Below are positions 50,564-52,619 of a DNA stretch of 64,000 nt, piece by piece. Position 1 is the stretch's first letter. Each line of letters begins with the position of its first letter. The stretch is from positions 64,001-128,000 of IMG/VR virus record IMGVR_UViG_3300043427_001127; one strand, given 5' to 3'. The translations under genes were made by a program, and so were the position numbers. The stretch is from a virus. The notes beneath the pieces were generated by a model. It was not told the DNA's origin, searched no databases, and was given only the letters and a program-made list of their open reading frames with translations.

Positions 50564-50695
50564 CACTAAACTTGCCCTGGTCGGGTGAACCCCCTTCTGG
50601 TTTCTTGTTTTCCCATTAAAAAACAAGTGGTGCGGATGGGACTCTCTCCCGCCCAGTTTCCTGCCTCTGGTCAAAGGGCAGGTGGCGAGCCGAGC
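50551..50695 (+). ncRNA. structured RNA with duplicated pseudoknot units, probably manA RNA motif
   Basis: CTCGG/CCGAG closure; two units with covarying stems (CTTGTTT/AAACAAG vs CCTGCCT/GGGCAGG); family name from recollection of the cyanophage manA motif, not searched. Confidence 0.65.
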
Positions 50696-50744
50696 AACGG
50701 GGGGTTGACATCCCCCACCCTCTCGGATATAATATGAGGGTCAA

Positions 50745-51737: not shown

Positions 51738-51825
51738 CCTTGGGATTATCTTGTAAAACAGCTCCAATGTTTCCTCTTTGAGGTTTAGATTTTTTCCTTG
51801 ACCGCTGTGGGGAAACGGTCAACTT

Positions 51826-51897
51826 GGAATCGTAGCTCAGTGGTAGAGCACTCGGCTGATAACCGAGCGGTCACAAGTTCAAATCTTGTCGGTTCCA
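51826..51897 (+). tRNA. tRNA-Ile(GAT)
   Basis: GGAATCG/CGGTTCC, loop CTGATAA. Confidence 0.93.
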
Positions 51898-51900
51898 TAT

Positions 51901-51916
51901 TGTATAATAGACTACA
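51901..51916 (+). promoter_or_regulatory. NtcA-type binding site overlapping TATAAT
   Basis: TGTA-TAATAGAC-TACA = GTA-N8-TAC consensus. Confidence 0.55.
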
Positions 51917-51939
51917 GTTGTAGATAAATATATACAATA

Positions 51940-52151
51940 CGTTCATCCCTTTGGGACGGAAGTAAGCCGACTCGGAACGGATCGTTCATCTATGGAAGCA
52001 CTCATTCTAACCTGCTTGCAGGCACAACTGATTGCCACCCGAGTTGCTGCGGCAGACATGCCTAAGCAAACTCGCAACGATCTCATATGGGAGGTCAAAC
52101 AGATCTCTCCTAAGGAGTGCAAGATAGACGCAAAAGCCGACTGAAGGAACG
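51940..52151 (+). promoter_or_regulatory. tandem glutamine-riboswitch-like aptamers (glnA / Downstream-peptide class)
   Basis: Two units CGTTCA-[P2]-CG(G/C)AA...AGCCGACT...GGAACG (51940-51979, 51983-52151) upstream of a YRG peptide gene. Confidence 0.75.
51992..52144 (+). CDS. 50-aa ORF nested within the second aptamer
   Basis: MEALILTCLQAQLIATRVAAADMPKQTRNDLIWEVKQISPKECKIDAKAD*. Confidence 0.6.
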   Translation: MEALILTCLQAQLIATRVAAADMPKQTRNDLIWEVKQISPKECKIDAKAD

Positions 52152-52183
52152 CTCTTTAACCTAAAAAACTAAGGAGAAACCTA

Positions 52184-52342
52184 ATGTCACAAGCAACCTA
52201 CAGAGGTTGTCAGTACAACACTGACGTACCTAAGCAAGAATATCAGCGTTGGTATTCACAAACTCATGCACCAGCACATCCACAGAATACATATCGTGGT
52301 GTTGCCTACCGTCCTTGTAAGAACTCGGAGGTAGCACAATGA
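52184..52342 (+). CDS. DUF4278-like YRG-repeat peptide
   Basis: AAGGAG RBS; MSQATYRGCQY...NTYRGVAY. Confidence 0.8.
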   Translation: MSQATYRGCQYNTDVPKQEYQRWYSQTHAPAHPQNTYRGVAYRPCKNSEVAQ

Positions 52343-52425
52343 ACTGGTTGAATCTAATCCGTAGACAGATTGAAAAACAAAAGAGACTAGAGATTGCCCA
52401 ATATCATATGGCAACTCTCGGATAA
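52339..52425 (+). CDS. 28-aa peptide
   Basis: GGAGG RBS, ATGA overlap; MNWLNLIRRQIEKQKRLEIAQYHMATLG*. Confidence 0.6.
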   Translation: MNWLNLIRRQIEKQKRLEIAQYHMATLG

Positions 52426-52427
52426 AG

Positions 52428-52453
52428 CAAAGGGGGCATATGCCCCCTTTTTT
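52428..52453. terminator. bidirectional terminator
   Basis: AAAGGGGGCA-TA-TGCCCCTTTT between convergent genes. Confidence 0.8.
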
Positions 52454-52619
52454 ATTTCCTTAGTGTATGTAAGTATTGAATCATTGCTTCCCTGATATAC
52501 ATTAGCTCGTGGTAGCATTTCTGATTGTGAGCACACTGCCTCAGTTCGTTGTCTGGTTTGTGTACGCTCTCAATAAACAAATCTAATCCTCTGTTCCATT
52601 TGTCGTTGTCTTCAGTCAC
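52452..52619 (-). CDS. conserved cyanophage hypothetical protein
   Basis: KWNRGLDLFIESVHKPD...CAHNQKCY. Confidence 0.7.
   Translation of the reverse strand: MTEDNDKWNRGLDLFIESVHKPDNELRQCAHNQKCYHELMYIREAMIQYLHTLRK

What the first reader, a model, noticed from the sequence alone, without database searches (positions are those of the whole stretch)
51940..52342. Tandem glutamine-riboswitch-like aptamers with a whole ORF nested inside the second aptamer
Seen: unit 1 is CGTTCA-TCCC-TTT-GGGA-CGGAAGTAAGCCGACTCGGAACG (51940-79). Unit 2 is CGTTCA-TCTAT-[~130 nt]-ATAGA-CGCAAAAGCCGACTGAAGGAACG (51983-52151). In unit 2 the 3-nt loop is replaced by coding sequence: the ATG (51992) sits in the 5' strand of P2, the TGA (52142) lies in the aptamer 3' strand, and GCACTC/GAGTGC extends the long-range stem. 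Established: glnA and Downstream-peptide RNAs bind glutamine, often occur in tandem and precede YRG/DUF4278 peptides in cyanobacteria. Inference: ribosome transit through the nested 50-codon ORF and aptamer folding are mutually exclusive, giving a ligand- and translation-coupled switch for both the nested peptide and the downstream YRG peptide.
Basis: partly seen in the sequence, partly recalled or inferred. Interest (0 to 1): 0.85.

Follow-up and report, generated by a model that had tools for sequence, protein, structure and literature searches.

The report
Gene nested inside interlocked glutamine riboswitch
A cyanophage mRNA leader folds into two interlocked glutamine-sensing cores, and one of its hairpins closes around a real 50-codon gene. 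Sensing nitrogen and translating that gene must therefore compete for the same RNA, and I found no published description of this layout.

Summary
Unit 1 (51940-51979) scores 34.3 bits against Rfam Glutamine (cut-off 35). With its insert collapsed, the element matches all 55 invariant columns of 22 insert-free relatives.

The 50-codon ORF (51992-52144) starts in the 5' strand of a hairpin and ends at a UGA inside the conserved core. It is a real gene: it has 195 homolog clusters, and interior dN/dS in five nested-gene families is 0.18-0.30.

The layout is widespread. More than 100 viral contigs and about 12 cultured cyanophages carry such genes in either or both repeats. The long-range hairpin covaries, and 77 of 79 genes found by an internal peptide motif sit directly behind CGTTCA.

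The "two tandem aptamers" reading is wrong. Covariation shows one interlocked fold. The linchpin pair joins repeat 1 to repeat 2 (135/135 paired, against 86/135 within a repeat; both within-repeat pairs are mismatched in this window). The two AGCCGACU boxes pair with each other.

That translation and folding exclude each other follows from the anatomy. Any regulatory use of this is inferred.

Earlier follow-ups of this scan reached the same reading on other cyanophage genomes (I read them after my analysis). I found no paper describing it.

The parts
51901..51916 (+). Palindromic NtcA-type box TGTA-N8-TACA upstream of the element
   Evidence: It matches on both strands. GTA-N8-TAC lies within 90 nt upstream of the cassette in 93 of 116 unique relatives, against 3 hits in a control window of equal length further upstream, taken for the loci long enough to hold one. 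Binding was not tested.
51940..51944 (+). CGUUC, 5' strand of the outer P1 helix; pairs with 52147-52151
   Evidence: Invariant in all relatives. RNAalifold pairs columns 1-5 with 98-102. Swapped model.
51946..51956 (+). Hairpin P2a (UCCC-UUU-GGGA), short form without a gene
   Evidence: RF01739 alignment. The hairpin covaries in relatives: 3 of 4 pairs show double changes. In other phages this hairpin holds a 61-69 codon gene.
51957..51964 (+). CGGAAGUA junction strand; G51959 is the outer linchpin base and pairs with C52152
   Evidence: This position pairs with the base after repeat 2's GGAACG in 135 of 135 arrangements (C:G in 86, G:C in 49). It is mismatched with the base after its own GGAACG in 49, this window included.
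51965..51972 (+). Box 1 AGCCGACU, 5' strand of the shared P3 helix; pairs with 52135-52142
   Evidence: The last base of box 1 and the first base of box 2 occur as U:A, G:C or A:U. They are always paired in trans and mismatched in cis. Further double changes occur in the middle and at the outer pair.
51974..51987 (+). Inner P1' hairpin: GGAACG (51974-79), loop GAU (51980-82, where G51980 is the inner linchpin base), CGUUC (51983-87)
   Evidence: Predicted by the single-sequence fold and by RNAalifold. All bases are invariant. G51980:C52131 is the C:G pair kept in 134 of 135 arrangements.
51989..52003 (+). 5' strand of long-range hairpin P2b: UCUAU (51989-93) plus extension GCACUC (51998-52003); contains the nested start codon
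   Evidence: Across 98 unique long units the helix averages 6.45 contiguous pairs, against 3.75 when partner strands are swapped among loci. The AUG has at least 2 paired bases in 92 of 101 units.
51992..52144 (+). Nested 50-codon gene (MEALILTCLQ...KECKIDAKAD); the last six codons and the stop are read from aptamer core letters
   Evidence: ORF list. 195 homolog clusters, nearly all of 50 aa. Interior dN/dS is 0.23, with changes at codon position 3 > 1 > 2. The AF2 model is a helical hairpin with pLDDT 82 and a disordered tail. Weak phrog_504 hit.
52115..52128 (+). 3' strand of P2b: GAGUGC (52115-20) and AUAGA (52124-28); also codes E-C and part of K-I-D
   Evidence: Covariation with the 5' strand: GCAUUC/GAAUGU in DSL-LC03 and ACACUU/GAGUGU in S-SRM01. 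Statistics.
52129..52131 (+). CGC strand of the inner core; C52131 is the inner linchpin base
   Evidence: Invariant. Pairs with G51980.
52135..52142 (+). Box 2 AGCCGACU, 3' strand of the shared P3 helix; U52142 is the first base of the nested stop codon
   Evidence: In S-SRM01 a compensated A:U to C:G change of the outer P3 pair destroys this stop, and the ORF runs on for 5 codons.
52143..52152 (+). GAAG junction strand (52143-46), GAACG 3' strand of the outer P1 (52147-51), and linchpin C52152
   Evidence: Together with 51940-51964 this gives the full RF01739 consensus CGUUCA-P2-ACGGAAGUA-P3-GAAGGAACGC.
52152..52176 (+). Predicted hairpin that hides the ribosome-binding site: CUCUUUA (52152-58) pairs with UAAGGAG (52170-76). 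It shares C52152 with the sensor.
   Evidence: Minimum-energy and centroid folds. Comparable to the model for gifB in PMC6212724. Not conserved in all relatives.
52184..52342 (+). Downstream 52-aa YRG protein, DUF4278 / IF17-like
   Evidence: Pfam PF14105 E = 3.3e-4, 21.4 bits, below the cut-off of 25.3. phrog_5049 E = 2.9e-9. The same gene follows the element in all relatives inspected.
52339..52425 (+). 28-aa ORF that overlaps the YRG stop (ATGA)
   Evidence: ORF list. phrog_545 E = 6.2e-6.
52429..52456 (+). Intrinsic terminator that closes the small operon
   Evidence: 9-pair stem, 6 of them G-C, followed by a T run.

Best explanation
SHOWN. Positions 51940-52152 are one composite glutamine-riboswitch sensor at the head of a small cyanophage operon. 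It is not two beads on a string. The 5' half of repeat 1 and the 3' half of repeat 2 form a complete type-I (glnA) core: P1 is 51940-44 with 52147-51; the junction strands are CGGAAGUA and GAAG; the linchpin is G51959:C52152. The two AGCCGACU boxes pair with each other as a shared P3 helix. The 3' half of repeat 1 and the 5' half of repeat 2 form a second, circularly permuted core inside it: the GGAACG-GAU-CGUUC hairpin with linchpin G51980:C52131. The hairpin of the inner core (P2b) closes over 130 nt that, together with its flanks, encode a real 50-aa two-cysteine helical-hairpin protein. Its AUG lies in the 5' strand of P2b. Its last codons read through the P2b 3' strand, the inner CGC strand and the P3 3' strand. 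Its UGA straddles the P3/GAAG border.

INFERRED. While the 3' strands are still untranscribed, the AUG is free and the first ribosomes can load; the ORF has no Shine-Dalgarno sequence. Any ribosome in the last third of the ORF melts P2b and P3, and so both cores. Once the RNA is ribosome-free the sensor folds, glutamine locks it and the nested AUG is buried. Pairing of the linchpin C52152 pulls it out of the hairpin that hides the ribosome-binding site, so the DUF4278/IF17-like gene switches on, as shown for gifB. The nested gene and the downstream gene would then respond in opposite directions to glutamine, and translation would reset the sensor. The conserved repeat halves also act as flanks that let such small genes be exchanged between the two hairpins and between phages.
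For: Riboswitch identity:
- Repeat 1 scores 34.3 bits, E = 1e-5, against RF01739.
- The same repeat pair in S-PM2, S-CREM1 and others scores 31-36 bits.
- The window matches 55 of 55 invariant columns once the insert is collapsed.

Interlocked fold:
- The swapped linchpin is paired in 135 of 135 arrangements with two pair types. The within-repeat linchpins are paired in only 86 of 135 and are mismatched in this window.
- The boxes pair in trans with U:A, G:C and A:U at one position, plus further compensations.
- On 22 insert-free forms the swapped model gives 93.8% paired cells, with pair 25:103 paired in 22/22 and pair 39:86 in 22/22 (three pair types). The tandem model gives 27% for both linchpins and 4/22 for both closing pairs.
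- RNAalifold on its own chooses the outer P1 plus the inner hairpin.
- Only the swapped combination contains both E-loop strands.

Nested gene:
- 195 homolog clusters.
- dN/dS of 0.18-0.30 in five families, with position-3-rich changes.
- 107 distinct proteins keep frame, both cysteines and the hydrophobic N-terminus.
- AF2 pLDDT is 82.

Fixed overlap with the RNA:
- In every long unit parsed (106 directly, plus 5 of 6 first mis-split; the sixth, L078, has a short repeat 1) the ATG lies about 8-16 nt after the C of CGTTCA, mostly 9-12.
- 66 of about 72 repeat-2 genes stop at the core UGA. 15 repeat-1 genes stop at the core UAA of AAGUAAG.
- The AUG is paired in all 101 unique units.
- The long-range helix covaries.

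Obligate nesting: 77 of 79 family-B genes found by an internal peptide motif lie behind CGTTCA, and all but one of the complete loci also keep a 3' half. Phages with the short form lack these genes altogether at tblastn sensitivity.

Switch direction: PMC6212724 and PMC6698751 report glutamine riboswitches as translational ON switches. The predicted hairpin over the ribosome-binding site shares C52152.
Against: - There are no experimental data for this RNA. Glutamine binding, the number of sites, translation of the ORF and the transcription start are all untested here.
- The helices P1, P1' and the inner linchpin never vary, so they rest on conservation, not covariation.
- The inner linchpin G lies in a 3-nt loop, which may be sterically awkward.
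- In the marine class both the tandem and the swapped linchpins can pair, so the RNA may alternate between the two folds.
- The covariation amounts to about five independent double changes, not hundreds.
- A terminating ribosome at 52142-44 would also reach the anti-ribosome-binding strand at 52152-58. Nested translation could therefore switch the downstream gene on rather than oppose it.
- The hairpin over the ribosome-binding site is not conserved across all relatives.
- No sigma-70 promoter was scored upstream in this window.
Confidence: 0.6

Rival explanations
1. Passive cargo. The sensor works as an ordinary glutamine switch for the downstream gene. The hairpin loop is simply a tolerant place where small accessory genes have been inserted and are shuffled by recombination between the conserved repeat halves. 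The overlap of start and stop with the RNA reflects genome compaction, not regulation.
For: All four combinations of short and long hairpins exist: 47+5, 25, 19 and 16 loci. The same protein family occurs in either hairpin, as in L115 versus L016/L084. Insert-free forms are common and keep identical cores. The tail residues follow RNA covariation (DAKAD, DANAD, DAKVD) and are disordered in the model.
Against: The start codon lies in the helix strand in every one of 101 unique units, and none has room for its own ribosome-binding site inside the loop. The genes are almost never found outside the element. Whatever the origin, a ribosome on the ORF must unfold the sensor, so some coupling is unavoidable.
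Confidence: 0.28
2. Two independent tandem aptamers, which is the first reader's and the published 'pseudo-cooperative' view. Each would fold on its own, and the second would simply have a very long P2.
For: Each repeat on its own scores 29-36 bits against RF01739 or RF01704. PMC9481103 lists 157 glutamine doublets as pseudo-cooperative tandems. In the marine class the within-repeat linchpins can pair.
Against: In this window, and in 49 of 135 arrangements, both within-repeat linchpins are G.G and C.C. The within-repeat P3 would be 2 bp, and its closing pair fails in 18 of 22 short forms. Repeat 1 has no GAAG and repeat 2 has no GUA. There is no expression platform between the repeats; the linker is 3 nt.
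Confidence: 0.07
3. The insert is a non-coding RNA domain, or the element is a decaying relic, and the ORF is an accident.
For: There is no Shine-Dalgarno sequence before the ATG. No Pfam family is hit and no structural relative was found. The nearest record, DSL-LC03, leaves the ORF unannotated.
Against: dN/dS is 0.18-0.30 and changes are richest at codon position 3. In the alignments and lists inspected, homologs differ in length by whole codons, and the two cysteines are invariant in 50 homologs. All 55 invariant sensor columns are intact.
Confidence: 0.05

Closest known systems
Glutamine-I riboswitch (glnA RNA motif, Rfam RF01739), e.g. the gifB leader of Synechocystis PCC 6803 (PMC6212724)
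   Same: The conserved letters are the same: CGUUCA, ACGGAAGUA, GAAGGAACGC. So are the three-way junction with P1, P2 and P3, the G:C linchpin, the position in front of a DUF4278/IF17-like gene, and the likely translational ON logic through a hidden ribosome-binding site.
   Different: P3 is not a small hairpin. It is an 8-position helix between two repeats that encloses a second core. One hairpin spans 130 nt of coding sequence. The default Rfam scan reports no hit in this window.
Glutamine-II riboswitch (Downstream-peptide motif, RF01704; structure 6QN3, PMC6698751)
   Same: It has the same ligand-site letters (CGUUC / GGAACG, the CGC strand, a C:G linchpin) as the inner core. The paper shows that the domain still binds glutamine when split into two strands, which makes a swapped or permuted core plausible.
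   Different: The inner core is circularly permuted: its 3' strand lies upstream and is joined by a 3-nt loop. There is no H-type pseudoknot. RF01704 gives only 18 bits here, against a cut-off of 33.
Tandem 'pseudo-cooperative' glutamine riboswitches (Sherlock et al. 2022, PMC9481103; Weinberg et al. 2010, PMC2864571)
   Same: They share the same kind of doublet of glutamine aptamer repeats, which is common in marine sequence data.
   Different: Those surveys treat the repeats as separate riboswitches and discard arrangements with intervening ORFs or long gaps. Here the repeats share helices, have no platform between them and contain a gene.
Leader-peptide attenuators and other upstream ORFs whose translation remodels an mRNA leader (my own knowledge)
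   Same: A ribosome on a short ORF decides which RNA fold forms, and so affects a downstream gene.
   Different: Here the ORF encodes a conserved, folded 50-70 aa protein under purifying selection. It lies inside a metabolite-binding aptamer rather than beside a terminator.

Membership tests
Glutamine-I riboswitch (RF01739) | Covariance-model score at or above the gathering score (35 bits) | tested here: not met
   Repeat 1 alone scores 34.3 bits, E = 1e-5. There is no hit at gathering level. The tool cannot score the composite with its 130-nt insert. The miss is due to architecture, not to sequence.
Glutamine-I riboswitch (RF01739) | Conserved core letters: CGUUCA, hairpin, ACGGAAGUA, P3, GAAGGAACGC | tested here: met
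   All are present if repeat 1's 5' half is combined with repeat 2's 3' half. The window matches 55 of 55 invariant columns of the insert-free relatives.
Glutamine-I riboswitch (RF01739) | Long-range linchpin Watson-Crick pair next to P1 | tested here: met
   G51959:C52152. The equivalent pair is kept in 135 of 135 arrangements as C:G or G:C and in 22 of 22 short forms.
Glutamine-I riboswitch (RF01739) | Selective binding of L-glutamine | not testable with these tools
   Needs in-line probing or calorimetry.
Glutamine-II riboswitch (RF01704) | Covariance-model score at or above 33 bits, with an H-type pseudoknot | tested here: not met
   18.0 bits, E = 0.05 on repeat 1. No pseudoknot is needed in the supported fold.
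Independent tandem (pseudo-cooperative) riboswitches | Each repeat is a complete aptamer with its own internal pairs and its own expression platform | tested here: not met
   The within-repeat linchpins are mismatched here and in 49 of 135 arrangements. The within-repeat closing pairs fail in 18 of 22. The linker is 3 nt.
DUF4278 (PF14105) / IF17-like, for the downstream gene | Pfam score at or above 25.3 bits | tested here: not met
   21.4 bits, E = 3.3e-4. phrog_5049 gives E = 2.9e-9. It is a likely relative but below the curated threshold.
phrog_504, for the nested gene | Significant profile match | tested here: inconclusive
   The window protein gives E = 0.0022, while the P-SSM7 and P-RSM6 nested proteins give 1.8e-19 and 3.1e-17. 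A profile-profile comparison of the two families gives 76% probability, E = 2.4e-5.

The most novel reading that the evidence does not exclude
The element is a new riboswitch architecture. It would be a pseudo-symmetric, domain-swapped RNA with two glutamine sites that share one helix. Its hairpins serve as exchangeable slots for small protein genes. Ribosome traffic on the nested gene and glutamine occupancy would then jointly set a reciprocal output: the nested protein when glutamine is low or the RNA is nascent, and the IF17-like protein when glutamine is high. This would give the phage a built-in readout of host nitrogen status.
Probability: 0.35. Interest if true: 0.9.

Novelty: new variant of a known kind. 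Interest (0 to 1): 0.8.

Why it matters
Riboswitch aptamers are treated as non-coding leaders, and tandem glutamine aptamers as independent units. Here a conserved protein gene lies inside the sensor, and the two repeats build one interlocked fold.

- This gives a natural system in which ligand binding, long-range RNA folding and translation act on the same nucleotides.
- If both cores bind glutamine, the shared helix offers a structural basis for real cooperativity rather than pseudo-cooperativity.
- It shows why both gene callers and Rfam scans mis-annotate these loci. The default Rfam scan finds nothing here. Homologs of the gene carry names such as 'indole-3-glycerol phosphate synthase'.
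- It points to a set of small phage proteins wired to the host's nitrogen status.
- Several cultured phage-host pairs carry the layout, so the question can be tested directly.

Tried and rejected
- Function of the nested protein: no Pfam family, no usable Atlas neighbour, and no PDB fold match better than E = 4. It is a generic helical hairpin.
- A single superfamily for all nested proteins: families A and B look related. B versus D, C versus D and A versus C gave no support. I claim only a shared design of a hydrophobic N-terminus and two cysteines.
- Promoter: the consensus scan found no sigma-70 site in 51800-52600. The transcription start in this window is unknown.
- Cellular origin: the repeat-2 3'-half pattern occurs in only 8 contigs of 185,579 species genomes. 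Seven are the phage cassette in MAG or SAG contigs and one is a chance match. I therefore dropped the idea that hosts carry the same form.
- Literature: Ames & Breaker 2011 and Ren et al. 2015 are not held. I could not check whether either mentions inserts or swapped tandems. Searches for an ORF inside an aptamer found nothing.

Full report
CONTEXT. The window is from a T4-like cyanophage (Kyanoviridae-like). It carries a cluster of 13-14 tRNA genes and a wcaG RNA just upstream. The nearest records are freshwater and estuarine Synechococcus phages: DSL-LC03 at 76% over 89% of the query, DSL-LC02 and S-SRM01. The finding lies between tRNA-Ile (ends 51898) and a terminator at 52429-52456. It forms a small operon: RNA element, nested ORF, a 52-aa YRG protein, and an overlapping 28-aa ORF.

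OBSERVATION. Repeat 1 (51940-51979) matches Rfam Glutamine RF01739 at 34.3 bits, E = 1e-5. That is 0.7 bit under the gathering score, so the default scan of the whole window reports no glutamine riboswitch. Repeat 2 (51983-52151) cannot be scored because of its 130-nt insert. I therefore compared it with relatives. S-PM2 and S-CREM1 have the same two repeat types, with an ordinary 51-nt repeat 2 that scores 33 bits. With the insert replaced by a tetraloop, the window is identical at all 55 invariant columns of 22 insert-free relatives.

THE NESTED ORF IS A REAL GENE.
- The 50-aa product has 195 homolog clusters at E <= 0.01, nearly all exactly 50 aa.
- DSL-LC03, DSL-LC02, S-SRM01, P-SSM7 and P-RSM6 all have an ORF of 50-62 codons in the same place.
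- A scan of IMG/VR for the 3' half of repeat 2 stopped at its 120-locus limit. Among complete arrangements there were 52 short-long, 25 short-short, 19 long-long and 16 long-short. So either hairpin, or both, can hold a gene.
- In every long unit the ATG lies about 8-16 nt after the C of CGTTCA, mostly 9-12.
- 66 of about 72 repeat-2 genes end at the UGA of GAC-UGA-AGG, giving the tail DAKAD. 15 repeat-1 genes end at the UAA of AAG-UAA-G, giving the tail GRK. The rest end in the 3' strand of the hairpin.
- The 107 distinct proteins (49-73 aa) all have a hydrophobic N-terminus and two cysteines.
- Interior dN/dS in five families is 0.18-0.30, and differences are ordered position 3 > 1 > 2.
- AlphaFold gives a helical hairpin (helices 2-20 and 25-38, pLDDT 82) with a disordered tail, which is the part encoded by aptamer letters.
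- The window protein hits phrog_504 only weakly (E = 0.002), whereas the P-SSM7 type hits it at 1e-19. Profile comparison makes the two families probable relatives. Other families share the design but show no demonstrable homology.

THE GENES ARE TIED TO THE RNA.
- Family-B genes retrieved by an internal peptide motif, which is independent of the aptamer letters, sit directly behind CGTTCA in 77 of 79 cases. All but one of the complete loci keep a 3' half. The exceptions look like decay products: L182, L206 and L207.
- Cultured phages with the short form show no copy of these genes elsewhere at tblastn sensitivity.
- The long-range hairpin is under selection. It averages 6.45 contiguous pairs from the junction, against 3.75 (maximum 4.15 in 200 trials) when 3' strands are exchanged among loci. 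Many covarying versions exist: UCUAU/AUAGA, UCCUAU/AUAGGA, UCCCA/UGGGA, UCCUUA/UAAGGA and UCCAA/UUGGA.
- In the window's own family the extension covaries through amino-acid changes on the 5' side matched by synonymous changes on the 3' side: GCACUC/GAGUGC, GCAUUC/GAAUGU and ACACUU/GAGUGU.
- The AUG has at least one paired base in all 101 unique units, and at least two in 92.

THE REPEATS ARE INTERLOCKED, NOT TANDEM. Published structures show that a long-range linchpin pair next to P1 is part of the glutamine site (PMC6698751). In this window the base after ACG is G in repeat 1 and C in repeat 2. The base after GGAACG is G in repeat 1 and C in repeat 2. Both within-repeat pairs are therefore mismatched, and both cross-repeat pairs are Watson-Crick.
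- Across 135 unique arrangements the cross pair (repeat 1 position 19 with repeat 2 position 41) is paired 135 times: C:G in 86 and G:C in 49. The other cross pair is C:G in 134. The within-repeat pairs hold in only 86.
- The two AGCCGACU boxes pair with each other. The last base of box 1 and the first base of box 2 are U:A, G:C or A:U, always matched in trans and mismatched in cis. AGACAACU goes with AGUUGACU. In S-SRM01 the outer pair is C:G. That makes at least five independent double changes.
- On the 22 insert-free forms the tandem model gives 27% pairing for both linchpins and 4 of 22 for both closing pairs. The swapped model gives 22 of 22 at both linchpin pairs and at the P3 pair that closes on the inner junction (21 of 22 at the outermost P3 pair), and 93.8% overall.
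- RNAalifold independently predicts the outer P1 and the inner GGAACG-loop-CGUUC hairpin.
- Only the swapped combination has both E-loop strands: GGAAGUA from repeat 1 and GAAG from repeat 2.

The result is a type-I core whose P3 is a shared helix. At the far end of that helix sits a second, circularly permuted core. Huang et al. showed that a glutamine-II domain still binds when cut into two strands. That makes the permuted core plausible, but its binding is untested.

CONSEQUENCES FOR THE WINDOW (INFERENCE). The nested ORF covers both strands of P2b, the inner CGC strand and the 3' strand of P3. Its stop straddles P3 and GAAG. A ribosome in its last codons must therefore undo both cores, and the folded sensor buries the AUG. 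The ORF has no Shine-Dalgarno sequence. Initiation should therefore depend on an unfolded start, which is guaranteed only while the 3' strands are still untranscribed.

Downstream, CUCUUUA (52152-58) is predicted to pair with the strong ribosome-binding site UAAGGAG (52170-76). It shares the linchpin base C52152. This fits the ON-switch model shown for gifB and proposed for both glutamine classes. The most likely logic is reciprocal. The nested protein would be made from nascent or glutamine-free RNA. The IF17-like protein would be made from the folded, glutamine-bound RNA. Translation would reset the sensor. I put this at about 50%.

The main rival, at about 28%, is that the genes are cargo in a tolerant loop and are exchanged through the conserved flanks. 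The same family in either hairpin (L115 versus L016) shows that such exchange does happen. A terminating ribosome could instead open the downstream ribosome-binding site, so the sign of the coupling is open.

COMPARISON AND NOVELTY. The RNA belongs with the glutamine-I riboswitches by core letters, junction and linchpin, but it fails the curated score because of its architecture. Weinberg 2010, Klahn 2018, the S-CREM1 genome paper and the 2022 survey of tandem riboswitches describe these RNAs as tandem or pseudo-cooperative. They do not mention genes inside them, and the survey explicitly drops cases with intervening ORFs. Ames & Breaker 2011 and Ren 2015 could not be read.

After my own analysis I consulted earlier notes of this scan. 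Follow-up agents had reached the same two conclusions on other cyanophage genomes: 56 notes in at least 36 genomes. For the scan, then, this window is a further member, here from a freshwater-type lineage. Those notes are not independent evidence. Everything above was tested here.

VERDICT. It is a new variant of a known riboswitch class. Interest is high.

Noticed in passing
window 51901-51916: A perfect palindromic NtcA-type box, TGTA-N8-TACA, has its centre about 31 nt before the first C of the element. GTA-N8-TAC lies within 90 nt upstream in 93 of 116 unique relatives, against 3 hits in a control window of equal length further upstream. It is usually centred 51-52 nt upstream; this window belongs to a minority with 31-32 nt. 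It may put the operon under host nitrogen control.
   Followed up: partly
window 52339-52425: A 28-aa ORF overlaps the YRG gene's stop (ATGA) and matches phrog_545 at E = 6e-6. It is a conserved third small gene before the terminator.
   Followed up: partly
L002 (S-SRM01) 816-850: A compensated change of the outer P3 pair (A:U to C:G) turns the nested UGA into GGA, and the ORF runs on for 5 codons. Here the RNA pairing appears to have taken priority over the position of the stop.
   Followed up: yes
L182, L206, L207: These are rare broken forms. In L182 the 3' half is missing and the nested ORF runs on into downstream sequence. L206 and L207 keep the 3' half but lack CGTTCA before the ATG.
   Followed up: partly
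L208-L215 (genome contigs): Seven contigs carry the phage cassette. They come from MAGs or single-cell assemblies labelled Acetobacteraceae, Dehalococcoidia, Rhodospirillaceae, Bacteroidota, Acidimicrobiaceae and Prochlorococcus. They are probably phage DNA binned with, or infecting, those cells. L215 is a 189-kb contig.
   Followed up: partly
homologs P0003, P0009, P0031, P0035 and others: Some sources name 50-aa homologs of the nested protein 'indole-3-glycerol phosphate synthase' or 'maleate cis-trans isomerase'. These names cannot be right for proteins of this size.
   Followed up: no
window 50596-50696; L006 1062-1247: There is a wcaG RNA (92.9 bits) inside the tRNA cluster of the window. 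In P-RSM6 a manA RNA (188 bits) lies between the riboswitch cassette and the transaldolase gene.
   Followed up: no
window 51974-51987: The two P1-type helices use identical letters. The RNA can therefore in principle switch between within-repeat and cross-repeat pairing. In marine relatives both sets of linchpins can pair, so a conformational toggle is possible.
   Followed up: partly
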